Shown here one piece after another: positions 269 through 61,085 of a stretch of 64,000 nt of DNA (position 1 is its first letter; the number at the start of each line of letters is the position of its first letter). The translations under genes and the position numbers were made by a program. The DNA comes from Squalus acanthias. Lineage: Eukaryota. Location: the NCBI GenBank assembly GCA_030390025.1, contig CM059431.1, positions 112,284,001 to 112,348,000 on the forward strand. Direction: 5' to 3'. The notes beneath the pieces were generated by a model. The model ran no database searches, was not told where the DNA came from, and saw nothing but the letters and a program-made list of their open reading frames with translations.

Positions 269-307
269 TTACAAGCTTTCGGAGCTATTCGCTCCTTCCT
301 CAGGTAA
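269..307 (-). ncRNA. Minimal type I hammerhead ribozyme motif (family A, inverted copy)
   Basis: Exact reverse complement of 472-510. Confidence 0.8.
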
Positions 308-471
308 GTTAGCAGTGAGAGAATCTCCCAGAATTCACAATTTAAACACAGACAAAATCTATTCAAATCTTTCCCTACATCAAAGACTTGTGTCTTTGAT
401 GTAGGGAAAGATTTGAATAGATTTTGTCTGTGTTTAAATTGTGAATTCTGGGAGATTCTCTCACTGCTAAC

Positions 472-510
472 TTACCTGAGGAAGGAGCGAATAGCTCCGA
501 AAGCTTGTAA
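472..510 (+). ncRNA. Minimal type I hammerhead ribozyme motif (family A)
   Basis: TTAC-CTGAGGA-A-GGAGC(GAATA)GCTCC-GAAA-GC-T-T-GTAA: CUGANGA and GAAA cores, helix I TTAC/GTAA, 5-bp helix II, palindromic AAGCTT helix III. Confidence 0.8.
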
Positions 511-967
511 AATTAAATAAATCTGTTGGACTATAACCTGGTGTTGTGCGACTTCTCATTTTTGTCCACCCCAGTCCAACGCCGGCATCTCCACATCATA
601 AAGAAAGAAAGACCAAGTTCCATCTGGTTCGCCTTAACATCCTGATAATCACATGATACAACAATAATGGAGTTTCTGATTTATCATGGTAATCAATCTC
701 TATCAATTAGTCTACAACAGACCCAGACATGAGGCGAGGAAAACCCCCAGTGGTGGAAAGATTTGGAAACCTTAGGACCAGAGTCACCTGTTCCTCCCAA
801 GCACGTAACACATGTCATATTTCAAATTACTTGTATACTGTATTGCAAAGTATTATTTTCTAAAAGAGATCTATCTAATTTGCATTTGAATGAATTAACA
901 ATGTCTGCTTCCACCTTCTCCCTATGGAGCCTGTTTCATAGATTTCCCACTCGCTCACTGAAATAAT

Positions 968-1438
968 AAAAGAAAGACTTGCATTTATATAGCGTCTTTC
1001 ATGACTACTGGATGTCCCAAAGCGCTTTACAGCCAATGAAATACTTTTTGAAGTGTGGTCACTGTTGTAATGTAGGAAACACGGCAGCCAATTTGCGCAC
1101 AGCAAACTCTCACAAACAGCAATGTGATAATGACCAGATCATTTTTTTTACTGATGTTGATCACTAGGGATAAATATTGGCCCAGGACACTGGGGATAAC
1201 TCCCCTGCTCTTCTTTGGAATAGTGCAATGGGATCTTTTACGTCCACCTGAGAGAGCAGACGGGGCTTCGGTTTTAACTTCTCATCCAAAAGACGGCACC
1301 TCTGACAGTGCAGCACTCCCTCAGCACTGCACTGGAGTGTCCGCCTAGCTTTATGTGCTCAAGTCTCTGGAGTGGGACTTGAACCCACAACCTTCTGACT
1401 CAGGCGCGAGGGTGCTACCAACTGAACCATGGCTGGCA
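968..1438 (-). mobile_element. Full-length tRNA-derived DeuSINE (SacSINE1-like)
   Basis: tRNA-like head (TGGTTCAGTTGG, GGGTTCAAGTCC), Deu-domain-like core (GGTGCCGTCTTT..GGATGAG..AAAGATCCCA..CCAGTGTCCTGG), L2-like tail CGCTATATAAATGCAAGT(CTTT)n. Confidence 0.85.
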
Positions 1439-2673: not shown

Positions 2674-2696
2674 TGTGTGTGTGTGTGTGTGTGTGT
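2674..2696. repeat. (TG)n microsatellite
   Basis: About 11 perfect TG units. Confidence 0.95.
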
Positions 2697-2720
2697 CAGT
2701 AGGTTATCCAATATTCAGTA

Positions 2721-2872: not shown

Positions 2873-2969
2873 TTATATTTAACACACACTAGCTACATTC
2901 AACAGCTTGTGTCTTTAATGCCACAGAAAGAGAAAATTTAAAGTAAACGAGGGTTGAGTTGAGTTCCTG

Positions 2970-6457: not shown

Positions 6458-8445
6458 ACCATGAATATAGGAACAGGAGTAAGGTATTCAGCCCCTTGAG
6501 CATGTTCCAGCATTTAACCAGATCATGGCTGATCTGTTCCTCACCCCCATTTACCAGTCTCACTCCATAATCCCTTAATACCTTTGCCTAGCAAAAATCT
6601 ATCGATCGCAATCTTGAAAATTTCAATTGGCTCAGCACCTATAGCCTTTTGGGGGAGAGAGTTCCAGATTTGCACTACATTTTGTGTCAGGATTTAACTC
6701 CTGAATGGCTTAGCTCTAATTGTCCCCTTGTGCCAGATTTCCCTACCAGAGGAAATAGTTTCTCTGTATCTACCCTATCAAATCCCTTTAGCATTTTAAA
6801 GACCTCAATTAGGTCACCCCTCAACCGTTTAAACTCAAGGGAATGCAAACCAAGTTTATGAAACATGCCCTCATTATGTAACCCTTTAAGCCCCGGTATT
6901 ATTCTGGTGAATCTGCACTGCATCTTCACCAAGGCCAATACATCCTTCCTGAGATGCAGTGGCCGGAACTGGAGGCAGTGACTCCAGATGGCATCTGAGC
7001 AAGGCTCTGTATAACTGAAGCATAACTTCCTACCCTTTGTATTTCAGCCCCGTTGAGATAAATGCCGATATTCCATTAGCTTTTTTGGTTACTTTTTGTT
7101 CCTGTGCACTAGCTTTTAGTGATTTTTGCACATAGACACCTAAATGCCTTTGCTCCTCCACAGGTTCTAGTCATTCATCATTAAGTAAATATCGGCCCGG
7201 AATTTGCGGTCAGAGGCGTACCTCCTGAGTACGCCTCTGCACCGCAAAATATTTCCGTACTTACCTCCTGGCTCCACAGCTACAGAGACTTCACTTCTCG
7301 AGCCTGCAGACGTACGCCTGCGTAAAGGCTCACGGATCACGGGGCGCACGCGGTTCGCAAGCATCCCTGGGATCGCGTGGGCCCGGTCAACCAATCAAAA
7401 CGGGGGGATTCCTATGATGCTTATGGGGATTGTATTTACGTACGGAATCCCCATAAGCATATTAGAAATCCCCAAATAAATAAGAATTCGTGCGCGGAAA
7501 CCCGGAACTTGCGATCTGTCAAGTTTCGCATTGACAGATCCTTCGCATCCACTACAAAATCAATTTTGCTGGCGTAGAGTTGGGCTATTTGCCCAGCGAA
7601 TGCCCATGAAACCCCTAAATAAAAATAAATGATTACGTGTTCAAAATTAATTAAAAGACCCTTTAATTAAGCATTTAAAATAAAAAATTTGATTTTTTGA
7701 AAAATAAATGGAAACATTTTAAAACGGGCCAAAATGTACCTAAACTAAATTTAAATGTATGTATATGTTTTAATAATTAAATTTAAATTTTTTTAACCCT
7801 TACACTGGTAAAAGGAGGCCTTGCGCCTGCTTTTACCAGGCTTAGGGGTTTCGTGGGCATTCGCTGGGCAGTAGTTGGGCAAATCGCCCAACTCTGCACC
7901 AGCCAAAATGATTTTGTCGGGGATGCGAAGGATCTGTCAATGTGAAACTTGACCGGTCGCAAGTTCCGGGTTTTCGTGCGTGCGCAGCGCAGGCGGGAAC
8001 CCGGAACTTGCGGGGTCTTTCTGAAGGCTTCCGCGTACGCTGTCAAAAGCACAGTAATTTCTGGCCCATTCTGATTTGTCATTCTTGAATCCAAAGTGGA
8101 TGACCTCACACTTCCCCACATCGAACTCCATCTGCCACAGTTTTGCCCGATCACATAATTGGTCTTATCTCCCTTTTGTAACTTCTTGCTCCCATCTGCA
8201 CAACTTACTGTGTCTCCTAACTTGGATATACAAATTTCTATATATTTCATCCAAGTCATTGATGTATATGGTGAAAAGCTGAGATCCCAGTACATATCCC
8301 CGCTTGTCATATCCCGCCACCCAGAGTATATTTCCCTTTATCCCTACTCTCGGTCTCCTTACTCCAAAGCAATTTGCAACCCATGTCAAAAGGTTACCTC
8401 CAATTCAGTTTGCTTTTATTTTTGCTAATAATCTCTTGTGTGGAA
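6458..8445 (-). mobile_element. Decayed CR1 LINE (RT to 3' end), interrupted by a MITE
   Basis: ORFs with RVGIKG..VLGSQLFTIYINDLDE, MEFDVGKCEVIHFG and FTRIIPGLKG..RLRGDLIEVFK. Confidence 0.88.
7194..8067. mobile_element. PIF/Harbinger-like MITE with internal inverted repeats
   Basis: TIRs GGCCCGGAATTTGC / GTAATTTCTGGCCC; 3-bp flanks ATC/ATT; inserted in a CR1. Confidence 0.75.
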
Positions 8446-9530: not shown

Positions 9531-9571
9531 TTGCCAAAATTAATTCATTTTATGGCAATCTATGGTTCCAA

Positions 9572-10515: not shown

Positions 10516-10519
10516 ACAC

Positions 10520-11750: not shown

Positions 11751-11982
11751 AAAATAAAAACCAAAATGGAAAATTCTGGAAATGCACAGCAGTCAGTGTC
11801 TGAAAAGAGACAAGCAAGGTTAATAGTTCAGATAGTTAGTTATCCTTTGATGAAGTTCTGTCAAAGAGTTGACACCTTAAAAAGTGATTTGTCTTTTCTC
11901 CTTTGATGGCATGTTGATGGAACTGCCGTGTATTCCTAAATGTTTTCTGATTCTATTTCGGATTTGCGAGCATTTGCAGTTT
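11751..11982. mobile_element. Highly decayed inverted pLTR pair of Penelope-like family B
   Basis: Left arm AAATTCTGGAAATGCACAGCAG..GAGACAAG..TTAA; right arm TTGTCTTTTCTC..GATG..GTGTATTCC..TTTTCTG; matches the 35111-35215 family in both orientations. Confidence 0.5.
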
Positions 11983-21032: not shown

Positions 21033-24020
21033 TTTTTTTATTCGTTCATGGGATGTGGGCGTCGCTGGCAAGGCCAGCATTTATTGCTCATCCCTAATTG
21101 CCCTTGAGAAGGTGGTGGTGAGCCGCCGCCTTGAACCGCTGCAGTCCGTGTGGTGAAGGTACTCCCACAGTGCTGTTAGGGAGGGAGTTCCAGGATTTTG
21201 ACCCAGCAACGATGAAGGAACTGCAATATACTTCCAAGTCAGGTTGGTGTGTGACTTGGAGGGGAACTTGGAGGTGGTGGTGGTGTTCCCATGCACCTGC
21301 TGCCCTTGTCCTTCTAGGTAGTAGATGTAGTGGGTTTGGGAGGTACTGCCAAAGAAGCCTTGGTGCGTTGCTGCAGTGCATCTTGTAGATGGTACATACG
21401 GCAACCACGGTGCGTCAGTGGTGGAGGGAGTGAATATTTAAGGTGAAGAATGGGGTGCCAATCAAGCGGGCTGCTTTGTCCTGGATGGTGTCGAGCTTCT
21501 TGAGTGTTGTTGGAGCTGCACTCATCCAGGCAAGTGGAGAGTATTCCATCACACTCCTTACTTGTACCTTGCAGATGATGGAAAGGCTTTGGGGAGTCAG
21601 GAGGTGAGACATTCGCCACAGAATACCTAGCCTCTGACCTGCTCTTGTTGCCACGGTATTTATGTGGCTGGTCCAGGTAAGTTTCTGGTCAATGGTGACC
21701 CCCAGGATGTTGATGGGGGATTCGGCAATGGTAATGCCGTTGAATGTCAAGGGGTGGTGGTTAGACTCTCGCTTGTTGGAGATAGTCATTGCCAGGCACT
21801 TGTGTGGCGCAAATGTTACTTGCCCCTTATCAGCCCAAGCCTGAACGTCATCCAGGTCCTGTTGCATGTGGGCATGGACTGCTTCATTATCTGAGGAGTT
21901 GTGAGTGGCACTGAACACTGTGCAGTCATCAGCGAACATCCCCATTTCTGACCTTATGTTGGAGGGAAGGTCATTGATGAAGCAGCTGAAGATGGTTGGG
22001 CCTAGGACGCTGCCCCGTGGAACTCCTGCTGCGATGTCCTGGGGCTGAGAGGGTTGACCCCCAACAACCACAATCATCTTCCTTTGTGCCAGGTATGACT
22101 CCAGCCAATGGAGAATTTTCTCTCTGACTCCGGAGCCAAGTGGTCCTGGCGGAACCCAAACTGGGCATCTGTGAGCAGGTTATTGGCGAGTAAGTGCTGC
22201 TTGATGGCACTGTCGATGACTCCTTCCATCACTTTGCTGATGATTGAGTGTAGACTGATGGGACGGTAATTGGCCGGATTGGATTTGTCCTGCTTTTTGT
22301 GGACAGGACATACCTGGGCAGTTTTCCACATTGTCGGATAGATGCCAGTGTTGTAGCTGTACTGGAACAGCTTGACGAGAGGCACGGCTTGTTCTGGAGC
22401 ACAAGTCTTCAGCACGATAGCCGGGATGTTGTCAGTGCCCATAGCCTTTGCTGTATCCAGTGCGCTCAGCTGTTTCTTGATATCACGTGGAGTGAATCGA
22501 CTTGGTTGAAGATTAGTTTCTGTGATGGTGGGGACCTCAGGAGGAGGCCGATATGGATCATCCATTCTGCACGTCTGGCTGAAGATGGTTGCAAACGCTT
22601 CAGCCTTGTCTTTTGCACTCACATGGTGGGCTCCACCATCATTGAGGATGGGGATATTCATGGAGCCCCCGCCTCCCGTTCGTTGTTTAATGGTCCACCA
22701 CCATTCATGACTGGATATGGCAGGAGTGCAGAGCTTTGATCTGATCCATTGATTGTGGGATCTCATAGCCCTGTCTATAGCATGCTGCTTCTGTTTTTTA
22801 GCATGCATGTAGTCCTGTGTTGCAGCTTTCCCAGGTTGGCACCTCTTTTTTAGATAAGCCTGGTGCTGCTCCTGGTATGCTCTTCTATACTCTTTATTGA
22901 ACCAGGGTTGGTCCCCTGGCTTGATGGTAATGGTAGAGTGAGGGATATGCCGGGCCATGAGGTTACAGATTATGGTGGAATACAATTCTGCTGCTGCTGA
23001 TGGCCCACAGCGCCTCATGGATGCCCAGTTTTGAGCTGCTAGCTCTGTGCTGAATCTATCCCATTTAGCACGGTGGTAGTGCCGCACAACACGATGGAGG
23101 GTGTCCTCGGTGTGAAGATGGGACTTCGTCTCCACAATGACTGTGGTGGTCACTGCTACCAATACTCTCATGGACAGATGCATCTGCGACAGGTAAATTG
23201 GTGAGGACGAGGTCAAGTAGGTTTTTCCCTTGTGTTGATTCTCTCTCCACCTGTCGCAGGCCCAGACTGGCAGCTATGTCCTTCAGGACTCGGCCAGTCA
23301 GGTCAGTAGTGGTGCTACCGAGCCACTCTTGGTGATGGACATTGAAGTCCCCCACCCAGAGTACATTCTGTGCTCTTGCTACTCTCAGTGCTTCTTCCAA
23401 GTGGTGTTCAACATGGAGGAGTACTGATTTCATCAGCTGAGGGAGGGCGGTAGGTGGTAAATCAACAGGAGGTTTCCTTGCCCATGCTTGACCTGAAGTC
23501 ATGAGACTTCATGGGGTCCGGAGTCAATGTTGAGGACTCCTAGGGCCACTCCTTCCCGACTGTATACCACTGTGCCACCACCCCTTGTGGGTCTGTCCTG
23601 CCAGTGGGACAGGACATACCTCGGGATGGTGATGGAGGAATTTGGGACATTGGCTGAAAGGTATGATTCTGTGAGTATGACTATGTCAGGTTGTTGCTTG
23701 ACTAGTCTGTGGGACAGCTCTCCCAATTTTGGCACAAGTCCCCAGATGTTGGTGAGGAGGACTTTGCAGGTTCGACTGGGCTGGGTGTGCCGTTGTCATA
23801 TCCGTAGCCGGTGTCGAGGTCGATGCCGGGTGGTCCGTTCGGTTTTATTCTTAAGTGTTTCGTAGCGGTTTGTTACAACTGAGTGGCTTGCTAGGCCATT
23901 TCAGAGGGCAGTTAAGAGTCAACCACATTGCTGTGGGTCGAGAGTCACATATTGGCCAGACCAGGTAAGGATGGCAGATTTCCTTCCCGACAATCCGATA
24001 GTTTCATGGTTACCATTACT
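21033..24020 (-). mobile_element. Near full-length APE-RT non-LTR retrotransposon (CR1/L2 super-group, Crack/Daphne-like), frameshifted, no ORF1 seen
   Basis: Endonuclease motifs KVLLTNIWGL, DIVILTESYL, WVGDFNVHH, LDLVLT, SDH; RT motifs NYRPISL, QFGFR, GVPRGSVLGP, FADD; deletion near 22130 removes the AFD motif; A-rich 3' end. Confidence 0.9.
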
Positions 24021-34959: not shown

Positions 34960-35215
34960 CCCATTTGCAACATTATTTCTCCTGCCTTTCATTCTAGCAC
35001 AGACCTTCCCTTTAGTTCCTTCCTCCCCTCCCATCCCCCCCCCCCACCCCCACCCCCCCCTTCCCTGCCTCTGCACCTGCTTAAAACCTGTTACATCTCT
35101 AACTTTTTCCAGTTCTGACGAAGGGTCACAGACCTGAAACATTAACTCTTTTTCTCTCTCCACGGATGCTGCCTGGCCTGCTGAGTGTTTCCAGCATTTT
35201 CTGTTGTTATTTGAG
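34960..35215 (+). mobile_element. Penelope-like family B pLTR fragment
   Basis: TGCTTAAAACCTGTTACATCTCTAACTTTTTCCAGTTCTGACGAAGGGTC..GATGCTGCCTGGCCTGCTGAGTGTTTCCAGCATTTTCTG. Confidence 0.75.
35111..35147 (+). ncRNA. Minimal hammerhead ribozyme motif (family B)
   Basis: AGTT-CTGACGA-A-GGGTC(ACA)GACCT-GAAA-CA-T-T-AACT; the helix III palindrome is broken by CG>CA. Confidence 0.7.
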
Positions 35216-35457: not shown

Positions 35458-35984
35458 GCGGAGAGGAGAACTGCTATCAGCCTCCTGTGAACTTTGGCAG
35501 TGTAAGTGCTGGCGTTCTTTGCCCCCCCACCCTGGATTTTCTAGGCCACAATTTGCACATTCCTTTGCTCTTTTAATATGTTTCACTGATTATCTTTCAA
35601 ATGATCAATTAATTTTCTGTTAAGCAGTTTGCGGGTCATTCATTACACACTCTCTTTGTGATCGGTGTATGTATTGATCTCTTCCTATCCCCTTCCCCTT
35701 TTTTTCTCATTCAATGTTTCCCAATCTTATTAAAATGCCTGTTTACCTTTCAGTTAAGACCCATGAAGGGTTGCAAATCTGCAATGTCACAACTTGTCTT
35801 TTCTCTTTACAGATGCTGACACATTTAGTGTTTTTATTTCCGGAGCGAGATACTCCCTGGCTGGCACTGATTCTGCAGATCCTGGTCTTCGACTGGTAGT
35901 TACAATGCAAACAGACTCAAAAGTTCTCTGGAATTATTTCAAGTCTGTTTCAGACAGCTGATGACTCCTAGAATTCTCTGGAAC

Positions 35985-37741: not shown

Positions 37742-37823
37742 TAGTACGTACGTATATGAATTAACAACAGAAAACGCTGGAAAAACTCAGCAGGCCAGGC
37801 AGCATCCGTGGAGAGAGAAACAG

Positions 37824-37860
37824 AGTTAACGTTTCAGGTCGAAGACCCTTCGTCAGAACT
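37824..37860 (-). ncRNA. Minimal hammerhead ribozyme motif (family B) in a Penelope-like fragment at about 37763-37870
   Basis: Reverse complement: AGTT-CTGACGA-A-GGGTC(TTC)GACCT-GAAA-CG-T-T-AACT; palindromic AACGTT helix III. Confidence 0.8.
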
Positions 37861-38114
37861 GGAAAAAAGCAGGAAATGAAATAGATTTAATACATATATG
37901 AATGTTTTGGTACTTCCCATTTGAAAGCTTACTTTAGAGATGTTGCCTGAACAATCAGTATGCAGCAATCTACCAGTTAGGCAATCAGTTTGATTCGGTC
38001 TAAAACAGGGAGTCTGGAAGATGCAGTTTGTAAGCAAAGGCTTCGCTGCTGCATAGAAAGCTGTTAACAATATGAATAGTGTTATTCTTTTTTCACTCCA
38101 TCTTGAATCACCAT

Positions 38115-45037: not shown

Positions 45038-45552
45038 ATGACTGTTTGGGAGTGACGAACAAGGCTGCAATTCAAATTTAATGTTCTGATGATGGGGCTG
45101 ATTTTCCTGACATTTGCCTCCAGGAAATGCCTATTTCATGGGTACAAAGTGTTGGATAAGTCCTTTACCCTTTAAACAGATTCATAAAGCTAGAGATAGT
45201 AAAAGTTTGATAATTTACTTTGTTTATTATTGATAAAACATTAATCTTAAACACCATAAACAACCATACAGAGCAACGCACACTAGCCTTACATCTGATC
45301 ACTTACGTGCATAGATTTTGATGAGGAACTGTGAAGATGGCTTCTCCAAGCTTATTCACATCACTGGGTCTCGAAGGTAGCAAAAAGCTTTTCTTTCTTT
45401 CTAAGTAAAAACATGACATCTCTTTTTCTTTTATGGCTCTCTTCCTGCTGAATGCGACCCTCTCTGATGTTTTATGAGCACTTAGTCGTTCTAACCAATC
45501 ATCGTGAGAAGTCTCACAACACCAGGTTATAGTCCAACAGCTTTATTTGAAA

Positions 45553-45589
45553 TCACAAGCTTTCGGAGCACTGCTCCTTCGTCAGGTGA
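45553..45589 (-). ncRNA. Minimal hammerhead ribozyme motif (family A)
   Basis: Reverse complement: TCAC-CTGACGA-A-GGAGC(AGT)GCTCC-GAAA-GC-T-T-GTGA. Confidence 0.8.
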
Positions 45590-45674
45590 AGTGAAGAGAT
45601 GCATATAGGCACAGCATATATAGTCAGAGAACACTACTGACTATATATGCTGTGCCTATATGCATCTCTTCACT

Positions 45675-45711
45675 TCATCTGATGAAGGAGCAGCGCTCCG
45701 AAAGCTTGTGA
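45675..45711 (+). ncRNA. Minimal hammerhead ribozyme motif (family A)
   Basis: TCAT-CTGATGA-A-GGAGC(AGC)GCTCC-GAAA-GC-T-T-GTGA. Confidence 0.8.
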
Positions 45712-47375
45712 TTTCAAATAAAGCTGTTGGACTATAACCTGGTGTTGTGCAACTTCTCACATTTGTCCACCCCAGTCCAACACCGGCATCTCCACATCAT
45801 AACCAATCAAACAGTGATGAGAGGACCCATGCCTTTTCACACCATATTGTTACTTTCTGTCATTGCTTTTCCCCGAGCCATAGCTTTGTTATAAACCAGC
45901 CTTTGATGCACGCTTCTCATAGCAGCATATTGCCTTGTATATTTCAGCAATCTCCTGTGCTTGCACTACCTCCGCTGTAATGTGTTGTCAGCATCATTGA
46001 GGAGGAAAAGACAAGCTTTTCAAGAACATGATTTAAACCAATGCTGTCTACATTACTGTTTTGTATTTGTTAGAAACAAAAGTAATGTAAAAACATATCG
46101 ATATCCTTACACAAAGATCTGGAAATAGGGAAATAGGGAGCAGAGATCTGTTTCATTGCATCACCACCCATTTTTTTGTCCTGGCCCCGAATTTCCAGGG
46201 CTTTCCTTGTGGTGCAGAGGTGGACCTGTGGCCTGCAATGGGTACAGGGTCCATCGCTGTAATGTGAATGTGGGAGGAGGGGGTGTTACTGGTCTCCCAC
46301 CTCTCTCTCCTGTTGTTCATCTGTAAGACATCCAAATACAGGTGCATCCCACCAAACTAGAATTGGGCTTGCACTGGGAATTCCTCTCGCACTGGAGGAT
46401 CTGCGGGAGCCTGGAATGTGGCTGAATTTCCTTCCTCTTTTGCCAGTGCTAGGCCCCGCCAGAGGTTGGGCATGCACTGGGAGTGCCCCTGCACCATGTT
46501 AATGCCCAGACAGGTGCTCCTGGGCATAGACAGGTACAGTGTACTTTAGATGCATTTATCCAGTGCTGGGGCTGAGGGGGACCAGAAAAACCGGTAGGAT
46601 GTCTTCTAAAATCCCTTGTTTAAATCACAGTTTTATTGCTCACTCTCACTCAGAAATTATATATTTTTCTATATTGCAGGTATTTGCATGAGGCATTTTC
46701 ATCCCAACTGTATAATCAGGTCTGTAATTTGAAAGGGGATGAGAAAATCTAAATGAAGCTTACTGTTCTACATATTTTTAATTTATAAATATTTAATTCT
46801 ATTAAATTGTTAATATGTCTTTTTGTAATAAAATAACCAAGAGTGCTGTCTAAAATAATCACTACCAAGAATATTTTGGGTAATAGATAGCCTGTCAGCC
46901 ACATTACTAAATCACATTAATAATTTATTACTATTCATGTGGTGAGGGAAAGTGTCTGGTACATTTATATTAGTGTGAAAAAAAACTGTGAAGTAGTAGA
47001 AATTTTTAGTGTTCCAGTAACCAGATCTGCAAGAAGATCTGGTCTGTCCATGTGTACACCGTCAATTAGTTCACACTTTATCTTCCTGATCTCCCAAACA
47101 GCATTAAAACTGTTCACCGATTTTGACTACTTTATCGCACAGGTAGAAAGGAAATGTTGGACCGCAAATGAAAGCGAAGACACGATGGGGGGGAAAAAAA
47201 AGTGAATGAGAACAACGCCATAGGGGGAAAAAAATCCATTGAGAGAGCAACGGAGAAACAGGAATAGAAAAGAAGAAAGAATAATCAGAATGAGAGCAAA
47301 CCGTCAAATAGGAACGAATGAAAATAATAGGAATATGGGAAAAACAAAGGATCAAACAGTGAAATGAGAAGAAGA

Positions 47376-49732
47376 AAAGAAAGACTTGCATTTATATAGC
47401 GCCTTTCATGACCACCAGACATCTCAAAGCGCCGTATAGCCAATGAAGTACTTTTTTTTTTGACGTGTAGTCACTGTTGTAATGTAGGAAACACAGCAAC
47501 CAAATTGCACACAGCAAGCTCCCACAAACAACACTGTGACAATGACCAGATTATCTGTTTTTGTTATGTTGGTTGATAAATAAATATTGGCCAGGACACC
47601 GGGATAACTCCCGCTGCTCTTCTTCGAAATAGTGCCATGGGATCTTTTATGTCCACCTGAGAAAGCAGACGGGACCTCAGTTTAATGTCTCATCTGAAAG
47701 ACGGCACCTCCGACAGTGCAGCGCTCCCTCAGCACCACACTGGACATAACATAAGAACATAAGAAATAGGAGCAGGAGTAGGCCAATCGGCCCCTCGAGC
47801 CTGCTCCGCCATTCAATAAGATCATGGCTGATCTGATCCTAACCGCCAATCTACTATCTACTATCACAGAACCATCTCCTGCATCTAACAGAATTGCACA
47901 CACGAAATAGGAGCAGAATCAGGCTACACGGTCCCTGGGCCCGCTCCACTACCCACAGGGCCATGACCGATCCGAACCTAGACTCATGTCCAAATTCCTG
48001 CCCGCTCCCCGTAACCCTTAATGCCCTTTACTTCTAGGAAACTGTCTATTTCTGTTTTAAATTTAATTAATGTTGTAGCTTCTACAGCTTTTTGTGGCAG
48101 CATATTCCATGGACCTACCACCCTCTGAGTGAAGTAGTTCCTCCTCATCTCAGTTTTGAAAGAGCAGCCCCTTATTCTAAGACTATGTCCCCTAGTTCTA
48201 GTCTCACCCGTCATCGGGAACATCCTCCCCGCATCCACCCGATCCAACCCCTTCACAATCTTATATGTTTCAATAAGATCGCCTCTCATTCTTCTGAACT
48301 CCAATGAGTAGAGTCCCAATCTACCCAACCTCTCCTCATATGACCACCCCCTCATCCCCGGGATTAACCGAGTGAACCTTTTTTGCACTGCCTCGAGAGC
48401 AAGGATGTCTTTCCTTAAGTAAGGACACCAAAACTGTATGCAGTATTCCAGGTGCGGTCTCACCAATACCTTGTACAACTGAAGCAATACCTCCCTATTT
48501 TTATATTCTATCCCCCTAGCAATGAAAGCCAACATTCCATTTGCCTTCTTAATCACTTGCTGCACCTGCATACTAACCTTTTGAGTTTCGTGCACCAGGA
48601 CCCCCAGATCCCTTTGCACTTCAGTACTCTCCAGTTTCTTGCCATTAAGATAATAAATTGCTCTAGGATTTTTCCTGCCAAAGTGCATCACCTCACACTT
48701 TCCAGTGTTGTATTCCATCTGCCAAATCTCTGCCCACTTACTTAGCCTGTCTATGTCCCCTTGCAGGTTTTTTATGTCCTCCTCACTCACTACTTTCCCT
48801 CCCATCTTTGTATCATCTGCAAATTTTGATATGTTACACTTGGTCCCTTCCTCCAAATCGTTAATATAGATTGTAAAGAGTTGGGGACCCAGCACTGACC
48901 CCTGTGGAACACCACTAGTTACTGATTGCCAGTCTGAGAATGAACCATTTATCCCAACTCTTTGCTTTCTGTTGGATAGCCAATCCTCTATCCATGCCAG
49001 AATATTACCCCCAATCCCGTGATTTTTTACCTTAAGCAATAATCTTTTGTGTGGCACCTTGTCAAATGCCTTTTGGAAGTCTAAATACACTACGTCCACT
49101 GGTTCCCCTTTATCCACTCTATATGTTACTTCCTCAAAGAACTCCAGCAAATTTGTCAAACATGACTTCCCCTTCGTAAAACCATGCTGACTTTGTCCTA
49201 TTAAATTATGATTATCCAAATGTCCTGTTACTGTTTCCTTAATAATGGACTCCAAAATTTTACCTACCACAGATGTTAGGCTAACCGGTCTATAGTTACC
49301 AGCCTTCTGTCTACTGCCCTTTTTAAATAAGGGTGTTACATTAGCAGTTTTCCAGTCTGCCGGGACCTCAGCGGAATCCAGGGAGTTTTGAAAAATTATT
49401 ACCAATGCATCTACAATCCCTACCGCCACTTCCTTCAAGACTCTAGGATGTAAGCCATCAGGTCCAGGTGATTTATCCGCCTTGAGTCCCATTATTTTAC
49501 CGAGTACCACTTCCTTAGTGATTTTGATCGTGTTTAGCTCCTCTCCCCCTATAGCCCCCTGTTTGTCCAGTGTTGGGATATTCTTAGTGTCCTCTACTGT
49601 AAAGACTGATACAAAATATTCATTCAGTGTTTTTACCTAGATTTTTGTGCTCAAGTCCCTGGAGTGGGATCTGAAACCCACAAACCTCCTGACTCAGAGG
49701 CGAGGGTGCTACTCACTGAGCCACAGGCTGAC
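47376..49732 (-). mobile_element. DeuSINE split by a CR1 insertion (SINE parts 47376-47744 and 49626-49732)
   Basis: SINE sequence stops at CACTGGA (47744) and resumes AGTGT..GTGCTCAAGTC..GAGGGTGCTACTCACTGAGCCAC. Confidence 0.85.
47745..49625 (-). mobile_element. Young 5'-truncated CR1 LINE with an uninterrupted RT frame
   Basis: ORF 47984-49510 (508 aa) SPGPDG, NYRPVSL, YLDFQKAFDKV, PQGSVLGP, FADDTK, through to its natural stop; no endonuclease domain. Confidence 0.95.
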
Positions 49733-52426: not shown

Positions 52427-52670
52427 AAATGCTGGAAATCTGAAATAAAAACAGAAAGGGGTAGATCTTGATTTTGTGCGACAGTGTAAAACGAGTGATA
52501 GTGAATCGGCGGCCCGTTTTACATCTCTCCCCATTTTTATTTCCTTTGAAGTCACTATCAGTCAAAGTCAAGATTTATCCCAAAGTGTTTGAAATGCATA
52601 GCAGGCTGGTCAGCATCTGGAAGAGAAAGAACATAGATTAACATTTGAGGTTGGGATCTTCATCAGAACT
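52427..52670 (-). mobile_element. Decayed Penelope-like family B fragment with a degenerate hammerhead, split by a MITE
   Basis: AAATGCTGGAAATCTGAAATAAAAACAGAAA..CAGCATCTG..TTAACATTTGAGG..CTTCATCAGAACT. Confidence 0.65.
52458..52581. mobile_element. 124-bp PIF/Harbinger-like MITE
   Basis: TIRs GGGGTAGATCTTGA / TCAAGATTTATCCC (12/14); AAA on both sides. Confidence 0.8.
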
Positions 52671-52786: not shown

Positions 52787-55700
52787 AGTCAATGAGACAG
52801 AATTAATAAATGATCTCATAGTAAAGGATCCTCTAGGAAAGAGTGATCATAGCACGGTTGAATTTCAAATTCAGTTGGAGGGTGAGAAAGTTGCATCTCA
52901 AACCAGTGTCCTGATCTTAAACAAAGGCAATTACAATGGCATGAGGGCAGAACTGGCTAAAGTGGACTGGAAAAATAAATTAAAGGGTAAGACAGTTAAA
53001 ATGCAGTGGCAGACATTTAAGGAGATATTTCATAACTCTCAACAGAAATATATTCCAGTGAGAAAGAAAGATTTTAGGAGAAGGGAGCACCATCCATGGC
53101 TAACTAAGGAAGTAAAGGATGATATCAAATTGAAAACGAAGGCATACAATGTTGCCAAGATTGGTGGGAGACCAGAGAATTGGGAAATTTTTAAAAACCA
53201 GCTAAGGATGACTAAAAAAATAAAGAGAGAGAAGATGAATTATGAGAGTAAACTGGCAAGAAATATTAAAACAGATAGTAAGAGCTTCTACGGGTATATA
53301 AAAAGGAAGAGAGTAGCTAATGTAAACATTGGTCCCTTAGAGGATGAGACTGGGGAATTAATAATGGGGAACGGGGAAATGGCAGAGACTCTGAACAAAT
53401 ATTTTGTATCTGTCTTCACGGTAGAAGACACGAACAACATCCCAAAAATGGATAATCAAGGGGCCACAGGGAGGAGGGAACTAAAGACAATCACTATCAC
53501 TAAGGAAATAGTACTCGGTAAAATAATGGAACTAAAAGACGACAAGTCCCCTGGACCAGATGGCCTGCATCTGTAAGGGGGACGTGTCTCAGACGGTGCT
53601 GGTGCGGGGTTAGGCCTTCGTTGCCTAATACTATTGCTTGCTCTGGTCTCCGGCCAGCCTTTTTGCAATAAGCACCTGTGAGTGGTTCGAAGCACCTGAG
53701 AGTGGTTCGACCCACTCGCCCTTACGGTTCTAACACTGGACTTAGGTGCAAGGAGCTGTAATGCAGAGAAAACTCAAATAGACCCGGTTGAATAGTACGA
53801 AATGGAAATCTTTATTGCATGGCGTCTAAAATCATGAAATACATGTCATAGGCGCAAATCAACGATAGTACAAGTATACATACATTCATAAAGCTTGGTC
53901 TGTGGAAATGGAGAACACACGGCACATCGTAGAAAGGGGAACACATTATACCTTAACCTTATTAAAAACCACCCTCCCTTAACATTGCCTACACTACGTC
54001 TAGATTTGTAGGATCAGAAAACATGCTCACCACTCGTGTTACTTCGGAGATTTTAAAGTGGGGCACTCAGCTCGTTTCGCTGCAGCGCCTGACTGTCACG
54101 TGTTTGGAAGGGTCTCTGCACCCCACTTGTTTATTTTCGCTGCTGCGACAAGCAGGCCAGACTCCCTGTTGTCATGAAGAACTTGACGGACCTCGGACAC
54201 AGTTCAAAGAAGAGTCTTCCTGTGCTCGATACAGGTTGTCGGTAGAACTCAAAGAAAAGTTCTTTATTTATATTTTCAGGCGCGGTCGGGGTTTACTGAC
54301 CGTGGCGGCACGTGGATTCTTCTCCTCTTCTTCTCGTCTCTTCGGGCCTCCGGGTCCAGTTACCGACACTCAGGATGGTGTACCCTGTTACTTGCCCTTG
54401 TCGGGGCGGCTCGTTCCGATTGAGCTCCACCCAACACTCGCATAACTGACCAGTACGGCTAAGAGTCAAGAGTCAACAAAGTCCAGAGAAACACAAAGTC
54501 CAGCCCTAAGGAAAAGCTTCAGCAAGGGTCCGCCGAGAGATAAGAGAATAAGAGTTCAGCAGTCAGCAGCGAGATAAGAGCCCGATGGACATTTGTTCTC
54601 CATAGTTATAGTGATGTGTCCGCTTATCTCCCGCTCAAATCTTAATGTTTGTCCTTTGTGTAATATTGGCGCTCAAAACTCCCAGCATGGGGCGGTTATC
54701 TTCCTTAACGGGTTTCGGTAGCACCTGAAACTGGCCAACTATCCGTTAATGTTTTCCCCATTGTTGACCCAGCCAGGATGTGTATGAATCGTCTCCCTGA
54801 CTGGTTTTGGGGGCCCCCGAATACTTGCTTAATCACCCGTCAATGTCTCTCTCATTGTAGAGCCGGGGGGGTATTTGTGTATTGATGTGTCTGGATGGGC
54901 CTTCGATTGCCCACTACAATGATCCTTTCTGTGCATAGGAAAACGATTCCAGCATTTATATCTTTGCTATTGTTCCAAATGCAAACGGGTTGTATCCTGT
55001 CTTTATCAGTGTTTACCGAGTATAATCCAATCTTATACGGAAATGTATATTCGACGCCATCTTGTCTGCCCACTGTGATTCTGGAAGCTTCTGCCACGAT
55101 GCGCAGCGGCCATTTTACAGGCTTCTGTGTCCTTTATTATCAGGACAGCATTTTGTTTAATAAAACTGATCAAACGAATCTGCTTCTCTTATGTTATTTT
55201 GAATCGCGATAATTGCGAAACTTTACACATCCCAGGGTCTTAAAAGAAGTGGCTGCAGAGATAGTGGATGCATTGGTTGCAATATATCAAAATTCCCTGG
55301 ACTCTGGAGGTGTCCCAGCGGATTGGAAAACCGCAAATGTAACACCCCTATTTAAGAAAGGAGGGAGACAGAAAGCAGGAAACTATAGACCAGTTAGCCT
55401 AACACCTGTCGTTGGGAAAATGCTGGAGTCCTTCATTAAGGAAGCAGTAGCAGGGCATTTGGAAAATCATAATGCAGTCAAGCAGAGTCAGCCTGGTTTT
55501 AGGAAAGGGAAATCATGTTTAACAAATTTGCTGGAGTTCTTTGAGGATGTAACGAGCAGGGTGGACAAAGGTGAGCCAGTGGATGTGGTGTATTTGGATT
55601 TCCAGAAGGCATTCGATAAGGTGCCACATAAAAGGTTACTTCATAAGATAAGAGCTCACGGAGTTGGGGGTAATATATTAGCATGGATAGAGAATTGGCT

Positions 55701-56779
55701 AACTAACAGAAAGCGGAGAGTCGGGATAAATGGGTCATTTTTTGGTTGGCAAATGGTAACTAGTGGGGTGCCACAGGGATCAGTGCTGGGGCCTCAGCTG
55801 TTTACAATCTACATTAATGACTTGGATGAAGGGACCGAGTGTAATGTAGCCAAGTTTGCGGACGATACAAAGATGGGTGGGAAAGCAAGTTGTGCAGAGG
55901 ACTCAAAGAATCTGCAAAGGGATATAGACAGGCTAAGTGAGTCGGCAAACATTTGGCAGATGGAGTATAATGTGGGAAAGTGCGAGGTTATCCACTTTGG
56001 CAGGAAAAATAAAAAAGCAAATTATTATTTAAATGGAGAGAGATTACAAAATGTTACAGTTCAGAGGGACCTGGGGGTCCTTGTGCATGAAACAAAAAAA
56101 GTTAGCATGCAGATACAGCAAGTAATCAAAAAGGCAAATGGAATGTTGGCCTTTATTTCAAGGAGGTTGGAGTATAAAAGCAGGGAAGTCCTGCTATAAC
56201 TGTACAGGGTATTGGTGAGACCACACCTTGAGTACTGCATACAGTTTTGGTCTCCTTATTTAAGGTAGGATATACTTGCAGTGGAGGCAGTTCAGAGACG
56301 ATTCACTAGGTTAATTCCAGAGATGAGGGGGTTGACTTATGAGGAAAGGTTGAGCAGGCTGGGCCTATACGCATTGGAACTTAGAAGAATGAGAGTTGAT
56401 CTTATTGAAACATATAAGATACTGAGGGGGCTCGACAAGGTAGTAGCAGAGAGGATGTTTCCCCTCGTGGGGAAATCTAGAACTCGGGGGCATAGTTTCA
56501 GAATAAAGGGTCGCCCTTTTAGAACTGAGATGAAGAGGAATTTCTTCTCTGAGGGTCGTAAATTTGTGGAATTCTCTGCCCCAGAGAGCTGTGGAGGCTG
56601 GGTCATTAAATACATTTAAAGTGGAGATAGATAAATTTTTGCAAGATAAGGGAGTGAAGGGTTATGGGGAGCGGGCAGGGAAGTGGCTTTGAGCCCAAGA
56701 TCAGCCATGATCTTATTGAATGGCGGAGCAGGCTCGAGGGGCCAAGTGGCCTATTCCTGCTCCTATTTCTTATGTTCTT
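52787..56779 (+). mobile_element. CR1 LINE (end of endonuclease, RT, 3' UTR), split by a solo LTR
   Basis: LGKSDH..SPGPDGLH|PRVLKEVA..FADDTK..; (TTCTTATG) tail; AAAGGG at 52781-52786 and 56780-56785 as probable TSD; late stops near 56197 and 56266. Confidence 0.93.
53572..55227 (-). mobile_element. 1656-bp solo LTR (retrovirus or LTR retrotransposon)
   Basis: TGTAA..TTACA termini; exact 4-bp TSD CATC (53568-53571, 55228-55231) inside the CR1 frame; minus-strand CCAAT, AGATAAG, TATAA (54606-54610) and AATAAA (53811-53816); CpG-rich. Confidence 0.88.
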
Positions 56780-57233: not shown

Positions 57234-58128
57234 GGGGTAAAAATTCAGTTGGTTGCGCCTCCCGTTAGCGCCTTAAGAGGGCGCTAATGGGGCACAAAGC
57301 CGCTAACGCCCGGGCGCAGCGATGTTTGCGCCGCTCGGGAACTTAACTAGAGATTGTGCGGCGGCGCTAAAACTTACCGCTGCGACCACCTGCGCGCGCA
57401 GATTGTGACGTCATTCCATGGTGCAACGCCCTTGTGGCGCCCCGGAGCGGAAATTGAGTGGCGCCCCCTGCCTTACCGCCTGGCGCATCCAATAACCGGA
57501 AGACTGGAACGCTATCAATCGCTGTGGGGCTGGGGGGGGCGCTATTTAAAGGGGGCCTCTTCCTGTCTTTTATTGTTGGTGGCATTTTTGAACTATGCAT
57601 TCTGAGAGAGAGAGAGGGAGAGACTTCTGGAGAGATTCAACGTTGTGTGAAGGAGTTTTGGGTACTGAGCAGCACTTTGCAGGTTCATTTTGATTTGCCA
57701 TTCCTTGTATCGATTTAGCAGAGACTGTGGGAGTTGCACTCTGAGCTCTTTGCCTGGTACTCTCCATTGTTCTTTCCAGCACATTTGATGTGCAAGTCTC
57801 TCCAGGCCGAGATTCAAGGCTGCAATGAACAGGATGTGGATGGAAAGCAAGATTAACCATCCCCTTTAAGAACTGGCCCGTGCCATTGTGTGTGTGTTCC
57901 ATTGCTGACTGACATTACATGAGCTTCGCCAGCGCTCTGAGGTAGCGCCTCACTCCTTGGCCTTTGCGCCTTAAGACAGGTGTGCAGCGCCTGATTTAGC
58001 ACTCCACTCACCTCCCGGGGCGGTAAAAGTGAAGTTTCCAGTCAGTGCCGATAATTAGCGCCAGGCGCTAATATTTGCGTCCAGACGATATTTGCGCCCC
58101 AAATGGGGCGCGACCTAATTTTTACCCC
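57234..58128. mobile_element. 895-bp PIF/Harbinger MITE
   Basis: Perfect 12-bp TIRs GGGGTAAAAATT / AATTTTTACCCC; exact TAA TSD (57231-57233, 58129-58131). Confidence 0.9.
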
Positions 58129-59547
58129 TAACATCCTAACAATAAACCCGAGGAAAAGCAGTCTCCACCCAAATTTACAGAGCCCATCAAAACATGCATA
58201 AAACAGATCACTTCGGCCTACTCTGTAGAAATCCCAGGCCCAGTCAAGAAACTCACAACTTGGGAACAATCAACTATGATTAAGTGGCAGATCGACAGGA
58301 TGGAGCCATCCCGAAACCACTTCACACATTAATAAACAAGTTACCATTAACGAGCCCGCCAGGATCTGATTTGGCGCACAGATAAGGAAGCTTCAATTAG
58401 TATAATTGAAGGCCCGTTCTCAACCTGAAAAAAAAGGAAGAAGGACAAGTTCATCCACGGAGGCATTCACCGCAACACAGTTCTCCAGCACCACCGTTCA
58501 ACGTTCCATGTCCAGCCAGGAGGTCGACAGCTCGAAGACCAGACCATTCAGCAAAGGAGGCCAACAGCTCCCGAAGTAGGCCGACACATGGAAGAAACCA
58601 GAGCGACCGCCTCAGTGACCATCGGACACCTCGCGGCAACAAGGGCCTCACGAAAACAACCAACCGAACATCACCACCAATATTGGGCCACCGCGACCAA
58701 AGAAGACCAACTCTGAGAAAATCCGAAGATCCGCAAAGTTTCCACTCTACAATCTACTCCTGACTTACCCCTGGGTAAGATTTTCCCCAAAGACTCTAAA
58801 CCCTACTTCTAAACCAAAGAAAAGTGGGTACTCACCTGATAGATCCAATACGCACCCTACCGCATCAGCGGACTCGAAGACTGACCAGCTAAGCAGTTGA
58901 AGTCCTCTACCACGTATGGGGTACGGCAGACACCAACCAACATATAGAGCGAACCCCAAAACCGCGAACTAGCCCAACTGTCAAGGATTCTGGTGAGTAT
59001 CATCCCTGGTCCTCTAGAGTCCAGATTGGGAGGGGTGAAGTATTCTTCTAATGTTATTTCCATCGTTTCTACCGAAGTGTTCCCAACTTTATTAGAGTGT
59101 TAAGAGTGTTTGTGTTGTGTTTTACTCTCTTGAATAAAGATCAAAGTTCTTGCATCAAAACCAGTTGTCTGCTGCACTTTTTGTCATAACCCCCAAATAA
59201 GTCCAAGGTCTAGAACCCAGGGAGTGGGAGCGATTCGAACCGCTCAGAAGTCAGAGGTGAAGCTGACACAAACCACCACCCCAGCAGGCCAACCATTCCC
59301 AAGGTTATATCAAAACTTGTGTCTTTTTGGAAAAAGCATCAATCTTTGGTTGCATTTCAATCCCTGCATGAGTTTTCTTTGTGTGGAGGGTGTCAATTTT
59401 ACACCGTAACATTGTTTGTTATACTTTCTTACAGTATTATTGACTGTTTTAGCAGAAGAACTTGCAGTGAACAAAATGCCGGGAAGGGAATTCCTCTGGG
59501 AATTCCTATTGTACTCCTATCACTAGCTCAGGACTCGCGTTTATAGA

Positions 59548-59975
59548 CCCTGGCACTCCTACCTGGACATGTCAGAGGAAATCTGTCGCTGCCATCTCAG
59601 TTTCACAAGAGAGGCCATTGCTGAGCTATGGCATCTAATCTGGGCTGAACTGCAGACAGGTTGCGTAGCTGCGAAGGTTATTCTTTAGTGATTCAGATCC
59701 ATCCGAGGCACTGCAGGTGACATCTGCTGGCTCATTGGTATGCTAAAGCAAAGGTTATGTTGTTGGAGCACTTAGGTGGGGTGCTTCCTTGCAAAGGTTC
59801 CTAAAATAATAAAAGTCTGCTGCATGTTGCATAACTTCACAATCCAAAGATGAGTCTTCATGCAGCAGGATGGAGAGAAGATTTCCAGAGCAATAGTAGC
59901 AGAGGAGAAGGAAATAGTATTTCAGCCTGAAAGATTAGTGCAGCAGAATGTCATTCATAACTGCTTTCAGCAGTT
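59548..59975 (+). pseudogene. Internally deleted Harbinger transposase remnant
   Basis: YLDMSEEICRCHLSFTREAIAELWHLI and VCCMLHNF motifs. Confidence 0.65.
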
Positions 59976-61047
59976 TCTAGATATAGCCCTGAATAAGTAG
60001 AGCAGACCAATAAACCACTGCACTCTACATTTTCATCCACTGTAGCTTAAATGTCATCTTTCACCATCCTATCACTTGGAGTCTTAACATGATCCTTCCC
60101 AACAGAAGCTGTCTGCACTGAGAAATAAAATATTCCAAATTTATTAGGTGATGTTTAGATATTGACTACTGCCAACTGCTGACTTCCGCTCAGTGACCTT
60201 TTAACATGTGTTTTTTTCTAGAGCCTACCCTGCTACTACATCTACGTGCTCGCTGGGTGGGAAAAGCAAGTCTGGCGACTGGCTGCTGTTGGTCAGTGTG
60301 GACCTCAAGGAATGAAGATAGCACTGTATTTCTGGATGCAGGGTCATTAGATGGCCGTGCTACAGATGGTGCCGCATCCGGGAAGGCAGTGGCTGTCAGC
60401 ATGAGCCTGCTAAGTGCCACTTCTTCAATCCTTTGAGAGGGAGCACACTGGATGGACCGCTGTGCGGCTACCTTAAGAGGAAGTGTGTCCTTGATCCTGC
60501 CACGCTCCAGGTGTTGGGCATCCCTGCAGGATGCGTGAGAGCCTAACACTGAGGGGTGTCCAGCTGATCTACAGCCTATCAAATCTGGAAGACATATAAA
60601 CTCCTGGAAGTTGGAGCTCCAAGTTTCCAGCCTGTCTCGGTTCAGGCACAAAAATTGGTGGAGGAAAGCTGGAATGACCTGGCCCCAGGATGTTTTGTTG
60701 GCATAGCTAAAAGGCATTTTAAAACCATCACCAATAAAAAGCCAGACTCGAGTCGTCGTTGGCTTGTTCACAGATGTGATTTCCAGTAAAGTAAAAATGT
60801 TAAAGTTTATGGTTTTCCATACAGACTGCAGCATTTGACACATTAGACCCCCTGTAACCCCACCTCATTGTCTCAGTTGTATCTTGCTATGTCTTTGATG
60901 TGGTGCCTTCCTGGCTGACCTGATTGTTTCTCTGCCGAGGTGTGACGAAAGGCAGTCAGCAGGATTAAATGTAGTCGTCTGACATTGTACGCTACACATG
61001 CATTGTTCTCTATCTATATATGCTTTGTCGATTCGTATTCCTTTACT

Positions 61048-61085
61048 TCACCTGACGAAGGGGCAGCAGCTCCGAAAGCTTGTGA
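61048..61085 (+). ncRNA. Minimal hammerhead ribozyme motif (family A) in a single pLTR at about 60990-61133
   Basis: TCAC-CTGACGA-A-GGGGC(AGCA)GCTCC-GAAA-GC-T-T-GTGA, followed by the conserved CTGTTGGACTATAACCTGGTGTTGTGCGACTTCTCA. Confidence 0.8.

What the first reader, a model, noticed from the sequence alone, without database searches (positions are those of the whole stretch)
269..61085. Seven minimal hammerheads in two families with covarying helices
Seen: all copies fit N4-CTGAnGA-A-[5-bp helix II]-GAAA-NN-T-T-N4. Helix I is TTAC/GTAA (269, 472), TCAC/GTGA (45553, 61048; TCAT at 45675) or AGTT/AACT (35111, 37824). Helix II is GG(A/G)GC/GCTCC or GGGTC/GACCT with variable loops. Helix III is a self-complementary hexamer, AAGCTT or AACGTT. 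Known: minimal hammerheads with palindromic helix III cleave as dimers. Unusual: the predicted triplets are CUU and GUU rather than GUC/GUA, and an extra A follows the CUGANGA box. Inference: structure is under selection across several shark Penelope-like subfamilies whose upstream sequences differ.
Basis: partly seen in the sequence, partly recalled or inferred. Interest (0 to 1): 0.7.

Follow-up and report, generated by a model that had tools for sequence, protein, structure and literature searches.

The report
Minimal hammerheads in Penelope retroelement stumps
The seven small ribozyme motifs are real, but they are the ordinary hammerheads carried at the ends of Penelope-type jumping genes, left here by five truncated insertions, and the two features flagged as unusual are part of the published pattern for these elements.

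Summary
All 7 motifs match the published minimal-hammerhead (min-HHR) descriptor of Penelope-like elements (PLEs); 500 shuffles gave 2 hits. They are five insertions: 269/472 and 45553/45675 are each one head-to-head fold-back, with a ~40-nt one-sided tail and a 12- or 10-bp target duplication, the described PLE anatomy. The 'unusual' traits are published. The extra base after CUGANGA is in 54 of 56 rows of Cervera & De la Peña 2014 Fig. S3, GUU is the commonest triplet (15 of 56), and the turtle row has the same CUU core. At 35111 helix III is not palindromic. Covariation within a family is one pair. Genomic copies decay: catalytic G12 changes about as often as its CpG partner (5-11% of depth), and four more family-B-like copies have broken cores. 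Best reading: a weak, dimer- or protein-dependent ribozyme selected in active parent elements, mostly inert here. No PLE ORF was found; cleavage and the 'shark' label are untested. The scan already reported this kind on other DNA, including this genome.

The parts
221..598 (.). Family A fold-back insertion 1: inverted tail-less arm 221-387 (-), 4-nt centre 388-391, direct arm 392-558 (+), ~40-nt tail 559-598
   Evidence: arms identical over 167 bp
209..220 (+). Target-site duplication, left copy (12 bp; right copy 599-610)
   Evidence: random control max 7 bp in 400 trials with smaller search boxes; the repeat is low-complexity
599..610 (+). Target-site duplication, right copy
269..307 (-). 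min-HHR, family A (C3 303, N17 273, triplet CUU)
472..510 (+). min-HHR, family A (C3 476, N17 506, triplet CUU); helix I U-A variant of the C-G pair
45504..45799 (.). Family A fold-back insertion 2: inverted tail-less arm 45504-45627 (-, probably running on to 45636), direct arm 45637-45760 (+), tail 45761-45799
   Evidence: loose ends before 45637 resemble the reverse complement of 45628-45636
45492..45501 (+). Target-site duplication, left copy (10 bp; right copy 45800-45809; 2 extra nt between it and the arm)
45800..45809 (+). Target-site duplication, right copy
45553..45589 (-). min-HHR, family A (C3 45585, N17 45557, CUU)
45675..45711 (+). min-HHR, family A (C3 45679, N17 45707, CUU); private C>T at 45678 gives a U.G pair
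61004..61133 (+). Solo tail-less family A end; 5' boundary uncertain, no convincing TSD
61048..61085 (+). min-HHR, family A (C3 61052, N17 61081, CUU)
35111..35147 (+). min-HHR, family B (C3 35115, N17 35143); helix III palindrome broken, triplet AUU; shared family sequence runs to ~35212
37762..37894 (-). Family B solo insertion with candidate 9-bp TSD (37753-37761 and 37895-37903)
   Evidence: control max 8 bp in 150 trials
37824..37860 (-). min-HHR, family B (C3 37856, N17 37828, GUU)
52570..52670 (-). Decayed family-B-like copy: CUGAUGA box intact at 52666, G12 replaced, helix II damaged
11768..11967 (.). Two decayed family-B-like copies head to head (11768-11846 -, 11853-11967 +), cores broken; probably an old fold-back
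   Evidence: nhmmer E 1.1e-6 and 1e-3
35749..35820 (+). Decayed family-B-like copy, core broken
   Evidence: nhmmer E 3.2e-6

Best explanation
These are the 3' pseudo-LTR (pLTR) ends of two families of endonuclease-bearing Penelope-like retrotransposons, left as heavily 5'-truncated insertions. Each end carries the minimal type-I hammerhead typical of PLEs: helix I 4 bp, CUGANGA plus one extra base, helix II 5 bp, GAAA-NN-U-H. Helix III exists only when two copies pair through the 4-nt palindrome at 15.1-16.1. Mechanism (inferred from published PLE work, not shown here): in the RNA of a full, partly tandem parent element, two pLTR hammerheads fold as a dimer, probably helped by the element's own protein, and cut slowly after N17. 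Selection on the fold acts at that level and new copies inherit it. The element's endonuclease nicks an AT-rich target and reverse transcription starts at the tail end. In two cases here the truncated cDNA folded back and was copied as far as the tail-less end, giving head-to-head arms, a one-sided tail and a 10-12 bp duplication (inferred). After insertion the copies decay without selection. In the fold-back loci the hammerhead is buried in a 124-167 bp duplex with its own antisense copy, and solo copies lack a partner, so the copies in this window are most likely inert.
For: Shown: 7 of 7 match the published descriptor, 2 hits in 500 shuffles. Palindromic 15.1-16.1 in 6 of 7. Inverted arm plus one-sided ~40-nt tail plus TSD at two loci, as described for PLEs (30-40 bp tail, inverted 5'-truncated copy, 8-10 bp TSDs, self-priming proposed for head-to-head junctions). 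The arms' 5' ends lie 4 and 9 nt apart. Family A is a very abundant repeat: 12,347, 5,167, 27,800 and 1,603 contigs laid in 4 of 4 runs from 3 organisms. Loose ends cluster at two 3' termini, 45749-45764 and 45796-45802, like the two RT starts bounding the tail in Anolis Poseidon. N7 varies three ways, while no other core position except CpG-linked G12 has a row at >=4% (40 of 41 rows shown). G12>A is 4.9/11.0/8.3% against C11.1>T 5.6/11.2/9.3% in X1/X6/X9. Four more family-B-like copies have broken cores. Whole fold-back loci fold as one hairpin, -230 to -317 kcal/mol. Published: monomers inactive and dimers weak; the Anolis PLE hammerhead cleaves only with protein and is not needed for insertion in vitro.
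Against: No PLE RT or GIY-YIG remnant was found near any copy: 0 of 150 short ORFs tested, of 155 listed. A 41-aa frame through the tail found no protein homologue. The PLE assignment therefore rests on RNA motif and insertion anatomy. Family B has no tail or intact fold-back shown here. The active-type dimer is not the predicted minimum: -15.9 to -19.9 against -26.5 to -33.2 kcal/mol cofold for family A, and -8.5 against -22.9 for 37824; this model does not score the core's non-canonical contacts. Laid contigs must be >=80% alike, which favours intact cores, and summed depth is not a copy count. Published data leave the role of cleavage open: no RNA ends at the cut site in Anolis; 1 of 9 Xenopus dimers cleaved.
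Confidence: 0.85

Rival explanations
1. One reading: the copies in this window are themselves kept under structural selection and cleave host transcripts in vivo.
For: 65 of 66 cells of the named structure pair (98.5%), with 7 of 11 pairs changed on both sides; slid controls reach 0-2. In run X15 (RNA by guess) G12>A is 0.03% against 4.9% in DNA run X1 of the same organism.
Against: Six of the 7 double changes separate family A from B and were aligned on the structure. G12 changes as often as its CpG partner. X15 also lacks changes at the loop-II CpG (0.0% against 1.6-4.7%), so it reflects young copies rather than core selection. 4 of 11 recognised copies have broken cores and a fifth has lost the palindrome. 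Fold-back loci bury the motif.
Confidence: 0.06
2. The stumps are a non-autonomous family in their own right (non-LTR retrozyme or SINE-like) that replicates from short hammerhead-processed RNAs using PLE enzymes.
For: Copies are short and very abundant. Non-LTR retrozymes are derived from PLE pLTRs and were found in one chondrichthyan genome.
Against: No head-to-tail tandem of hammerhead units in the window. 5' ends differ between insertions (84 and 42 nt upstream of C3). The 3' ends lie at the PLE tail sites, 51-93 nt past N17, not at the cleavage site.
Confidence: 0.1
3. The motif is a structural or protein-binding signal of the PLE RNA and cleavage is incidental or lost in these families.
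For: Hammerhead mutants do not affect insertion by the Anolis PLE in vitro. Naiad PLEs thrive without canonical hammerheads. U17 triplets are not the fastest class (one search names GUC and GUA as fastest).
Against: All catalytic core positions are kept in both families while N7, loop II and helix sequences change. U17 is in 24 of 56 published min-HHR rows.
Confidence: 0.2
4. Chance matches, or assembly artefacts (fold-back chimeras).
For: The arms at 221-558 are identical over 167 bp, as an artefactual fold-back would be. No laid contig spans the tested stretch.
Against: 2 hits in 500 shuffles against 7. TSDs flank both fold-backs. The second pair has 5 arm differences, three of them CpG-type.
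Confidence: 0.02

Closest known systems
Minimal hammerheads (min-HHR) in pLTRs of metazoan Penelope-like elements (Cervera & De la Peña 2014, PMC4209133)
   Same: Matches the paper's descriptor exactly (7 of 7). Extra base between 9 and 10.1; G10.1-C11.1 in family A; palindromic 15.2-16.2; helix I 4 bp; mostly solo copies, with some pairs close together on opposite strands. The painted-turtle row has an extra A and the same G-C-U-U core end as family A, and the lamprey row has the same helix I as most A copies.
   Different: No cartilaginous fish among the 56 rows of Fig. S3. Both family B copies have G10.1.U11.1. Helix II (5 bp) is shorter than in the Schistosoma families (7-8 bp). No link to an ORF is shown in this window.
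Inverted-pLTR plus tail insertions of EN+ PLEs (Arkhipova et al. 2013, PMC3846280; Craig et al. 2021, PMC8557442)
   Same: Head-to-head inverted copy at the 5' end, 30-40 bp tail on one side, 8-10 bp TSD, palindromic junction (passages).
   Different: Here the insertions are truncated inside the pLTR, so they are ~300-380 bp hairpins with no ORF. TSDs are 10 and 12 bp.
Poseidon element of Anolis carolinensis, PAc (Frangieh et al. 2024, PMC11167929)
   Same: pLTR hammerhead; two 3' termini a tail-length apart (here ~45760 and ~45800); AT-rich targets.
   Different: In PAc the ORF starts in stem II and RT starts 111-118 nt into the ORF. In family A the tail ends at a possible ATG (plurality of loose ends, agreement 0.35-0.42). 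Clade (Poseidon or Neptune) was not determined.
Non-LTR retrozymes of animals (Li et al. 2026, bioRxiv 10.64898/2026.07.22.740005)
   Same: Type I hammerhead, derived from PLE pLTRs, present in one chondrichthyan genome.
   Different: Defined by at least two consecutive head-to-tail units with complete hammerheads; none in this window.

Membership tests
PLE min-HHR (Cervera & De la Peña 2014) | Published descriptor: stem I 3-7, ^cuganga (7-8 nt), stem II 3-7, loop 3-10, gaaannuh$, GU allowed | tested here: met
   7 of 7 copies; 2 hits in 500 shuffles
PLE min-HHR (Cervera & De la Peña 2014) | [quoted passage not shown] | tested here: met
   A in 7 of 7; for the two B copies a register without it also fits the descriptor
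PLE min-HHR (Cervera & De la Peña 2014) | G10.1-C11.1 pair | tested here: inconclusive
   G-C in the 5 family A copies, G.U wobble in the 2 family B copies
PLE min-HHR (Cervera & De la Peña 2014) | Palindromic 15.2-16.2 | tested here: met
   6 of 7; lost at 35111
PLE min-HHR (Cervera & De la Peña 2014) | Families with compensatory changes | tested here: inconclusive
   1 double change within family A, 6 between A and B on a structure-led alignment of 6 rows from 5 insertions; no R-scape run
Hammerhead ribozyme | Site-specific self-cleavage 3' of N17 | not testable with these tools
   Only contigs were available, which cannot show RNA ends
EN+ Penelope-like element | ORF with PLE-type RT and GIY-YIG endonuclease adjacent to the pLTR | tested here: inconclusive
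   None in the window near the copies (150 of 155 ORFs), as expected for stumps; no genome held; protein search empty
EN+ Penelope-like element | Inverted pLTR copy at the 5' end with a one-sided 30-40 nt tail | tested here: met
   Family A at 221-598 and 45504-45799; two 3' termini among laid contigs. Not shown for family B.
EN+ Penelope-like element | Short target-site duplication | tested here: met
   12, 10 and candidate 9 bp at 3 of 5 insertions; none convincing at 35111 and 61048
Non-LTR retrozyme | At least two head-to-tail units each with a complete hammerhead | tested here: not met
   Pairs are inverted, others solo
Rfam hammerhead families | Match to a curated covariance model | tested here: not met
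   No hammerhead family among 19 matches at E<=10

The most novel reading that the evidence does not exclude
Family A is so abundant that solo copies in different host transcripts, or one copy plus the element's protein, could assemble an active hammerhead in trans through the fixed 4-nt palindrome. The invariant slow U17 site and the antisense arm of fold-back insertions would then act as brakes. Dispersed PLE stumps would form a genome-wide, conditional RNA-cleavage layer in this lineage.
Probability: 0.04. Interest if true: 0.55.

Novelty: new member of a known kind. Interest (0 to 1): 0.12.

Why it matters
Little on its own. It adds two more vertebrate families to a class described in 2014, apparently from a lineage absent from that paper's alignment. 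Two uses remain. The identical-armed insertion at 221-598 is a young, compact example of the PLE fold-back product. A very high-copy family with a uniform core is good material for the open question of whether PLE hammerheads cut in vivo and whether the element's protein is needed.

Tried and rejected
No whole genome is held, so no genome-wide alignment or R-scape test was possible. Rfam at E<=10 gave only hairpin-type miRNA and sRNA models far below gathering score; rejected. Exact-pattern scans for family A found 0 matches in viral, metagenome and genome contigs, and for family B 0 in metagenome and viral contigs. No RNA holder listed. All runs were contigs, so the empty table of molecule ends says nothing on cleavage. 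Pfam on 16 long ORFs found RT or AP-endonuclease domains in 5, none next to a hammerhead. Pfam on 150 of 155 short ORFs near the copies gave one sub-threshold DUF7101 match and no PLE domain. A protein search with the 41-aa frame through the tail, longer proteins only, found no candidate; weak evidence. A covariance model from 6 rows recovered the 7 copies (57-71 bits) and nothing else above 14 bits. TSD candidates at 61048 and 35111 were rejected as chance or internal. Twin priming by two independent cDNAs was considered for the inverted pairs and ranked below fold-back, because the two 5' ends lie only 4 and 9 nt apart. Look-ups of earlier notes by sequence were empty; the one nearby note concerns an unrelated LINE. 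Lünse et al. 2017 is not held. Searches for a paper on shark PLE hammerheads listed none.
Full report
Observation. All seven motifs are present at the stated coordinates, four on the plus strand and three on the minus strand. My strict descriptor found these 7 and nothing in 200 block-wise dinucleotide shuffles. The descriptor printed in Fig. S7 of Cervera & De la Peña 2014 found the same 7, against 2 hits in total in 500 shuffles. A covariance model built from six of the copies scored the seven at 57-71 bits and nothing else above 14 bits. The predicted cut positions 506, 45707 and 61081 are N17. One detail is wrong: at 35111 the hexamer is AACATT, so helix III cannot form as a homodimer and the triplet is AUU. 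Rfam listed no hammerhead family among 19 matches at E<=10.

Five insertions, not seven. Copies 269 and 472 are the arms of one head-to-head inverted repeat, identical over 167 bp around a 4-nt centre. Copies 45553 and 45675 are another, with 5 differences in 124 bp around 9 nt. In both, only the plus-strand arm continues into a ~40-nt extension, 559-598 and 45761-45799. The units are flanked by direct repeats of 12 bp (209-220, 599-610) and 10 bp (45492-45501, 45800-45809). Random control pairs gave at most 7 bp in 400 trials, with smaller search boxes than I used for the real loci, and the 12-bp repeat is low in complexity. Copy 61048 is a solo end without the extension. Copy 37824 is a 133-bp solo insertion with a candidate 9-bp duplication (control max 8 bp in 150 trials). 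Copy 35111 has no convincing duplication. An inverted 5'-truncated copy, a one-sided 30-40 bp tail and 8-10 bp duplications are the described anatomy of endonuclease-bearing PLEs (passages of PMC8557442, and PMC3846280). The latter reads head-to-head junctions as self-priming on an antisense strand.

Family-wide view. No genome is held, so I laid contigs of 4 of 22 listed runs on 45630-45900 at 80% likeness. They gave 12,347 (X1, organism A), 5,167 (X6, organism B), 27,800 (X9, organism D) and 1,603 contigs (X15, organism A, RNA by guess). Summed depth falls by three to four orders of magnitude past 45810. The tool warns that depth is no copy number, so I conclude only that family A is a very abundant repeat shared by three organisms. 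Loose ends (24 rows shown, 598 not) cluster at two 3' termini: 45749-45764 (42 contigs in X1, 78 in X9) and 45796-45802 (141 at 45800 in X1, 69 in X6, 362 in X9). This fits Anolis Poseidon, where the tail is the stretch between two RT start sites (PMC11167929). Within the ribozyme, rows at >=4% of depth (40 of 41 shown) fall at 45678, N7, loop II with its CpG, and the CpG at C11.1-G12. G12>A is 4.9, 11.0 and 8.3% in X1, X6 and X9, and C11.1>T is 5.6, 11.2 and 9.3%. The general base is thus lost about as often as its CpG partner, which is what unselected decay gives. The likeness filter favours intact cores, so these figures are lower bounds. Profile searches found three more family-B-like copies in the window besides the one at 52666; all four have broken cores. 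The seven are the survivors among eleven recognised copies.

The 'unusual' traits. [quoted passage not shown] I counted by eye the 56 rows of their Fig. S3 in machine-read text. The extra base is in 54 of 56 and is A in 30. Triplets are GUU 15, GUC 14, AUC 9, AUU 5, CUU 3, GUA 3, others 7, and U17 is in 24 of 56. The painted-turtle row has the extra A and the CUU end of family A. No row is a cartilaginous fish.

Covariation. On six rows (269 left out as identical to 472), 65 of 66 cells pair and 7 of 11 pairs change on both sides; slid controls give 0-2. Only one of the seven, C-G to U-A in helix I of 472, lies within a family. The other six come from setting family A against B, which share no BLAST match and are aligned on the core. 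That in-family variant has no row at >=4%, so its subfamily is minor or poorly laid. Among the three independent A insertions the ribozyme varies at 9 of 39 columns and the last 34 nt before the tail at 1 of 34. 'Upstream differs' holds for 472 against the rest; 45675 and 61048 are homologous upstream. The pattern fits selection in parent elements but is too thin to test here.

How it works. Shown: motif, anatomy, abundance and decay. From the literature: min-HHR monomers do not cleave and dimers cleave weakly. The Anolis hammerhead cleaves only with the element's protein, is not needed for insertion in vitro, and leaves no RNA-seq ends at its site. One of nine Xenopus dimers cleaved. Inferred: two pLTR hammerheads in a tandem parent transcript pair through the 4-nt palindrome and cut after N17, probably with protein help. 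Insertion starts at the tail end, and the truncated cDNA sometimes folds back to give the inverted arm. In the fold-back loci either strand folds into one hairpin of -230 to -317 kcal/mol that buries the motif. Against activity even in dimers, the active-type dimer is 9-14 kcal/mol above the best cofold for the six palindromic copies, though the energy model ignores core contacts.

Gaps. No PLE protein remnant was found: 0 of 150 short ORFs tested near the copies, of 155 listed, and no homologue for the frame through the tail. Membership in PLEs therefore rests on RNA motif and insertion anatomy, and is stronger for family A than for B. The five ORFs with Pfam domains are RT or AP-endonuclease pieces of ordinary LINEs away from the hammerheads. 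'Shark' was not tested. PLEs are reported in the whale shark genome (passages), and earlier AI notes call this genome shark-like.

Papers seen. PMC4209133: parts 1-2 of 4 of the text and all three parts of the supplement PDF as text, no figures. PMC11167929: parts 1-2 of 4. bioRxiv 10.64898/2026.07.22.740005: parts 1 and 3 of 5 and passages; its supplements are closed and may name the chondrichthyan family. PMC8557442, PMC3846280, PMC6765202, PMC6155905, PMC3138052, PMC8455134 and bioRxiv 10.1101/443036: passages. Lünse et al. 2017 is not held and is known to me only from recall and from its citation; it may include shark examples. Four searches listed no paper on shark PLE hammerheads.

Earlier notes. 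The scan has reported hammerhead-bearing Penelope ends and fold-back stumps in this and other genomes. One note describes an intact element with both pLTR hammerheads in this genome; I could not check it or tell whether it is the same family.

Verdict. Real motifs, correctly spotted, of a kind described in 2014. New member of a known kind; interest 0.12.

Noticed in passing
window 221-598: The two arms are identical over 167 bp: a very young insertion, arm homogenisation, or less likely an assembly fold-back. Its upstream pLTR part is unlike that of the other family A copies.
   Followed up: partly
window 45799-45801 and loose ends: The tail ends at A-T, and the plurality of loose ends continue with G in 4 of 4 runs, giving a possible ATG. 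The frame from 45712 is open through the tail in frame with it. Agreement is low (0.35-0.42) and a protein search was empty.
   Followed up: partly
window 11768-11967: Two decayed family-B-like copies head to head, probably an old fold-back insertion, which would extend the fold-back habit to family B.
   Followed up: partly
run X15 against X1, window 45694-45700: CpG-type changes are nearly absent in the run guessed to be RNA (0-1.6%) but 1.6-5.6% in DNA of the same organism, hinting that transcribed copies are the young ones.
   Followed up: partly
window 47984-49636 (-), 55213-56199 (+), 21415-23508: LINE fragments with RT and AP-endonuclease domains; a 550-aa open RT frame at 47984-49636. 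About 19.7 kb of the window is repeated within it.
   Followed up: no
window 7404-7979: Nested inverted repeats (7404-7473; 7492-7618 with 7842-7979) unrelated to the hammerhead families, possibly a non-autonomous DNA transposon.
   Followed up: no
window 60193-60864 (-): A 224-codon open frame just upstream of the 61048 copy with no Pfam match.
   Followed up: partly
window 45808-45897: A separate lower-copy repeat begins right after the target duplication; contigs of all four runs align there.
   Followed up: no
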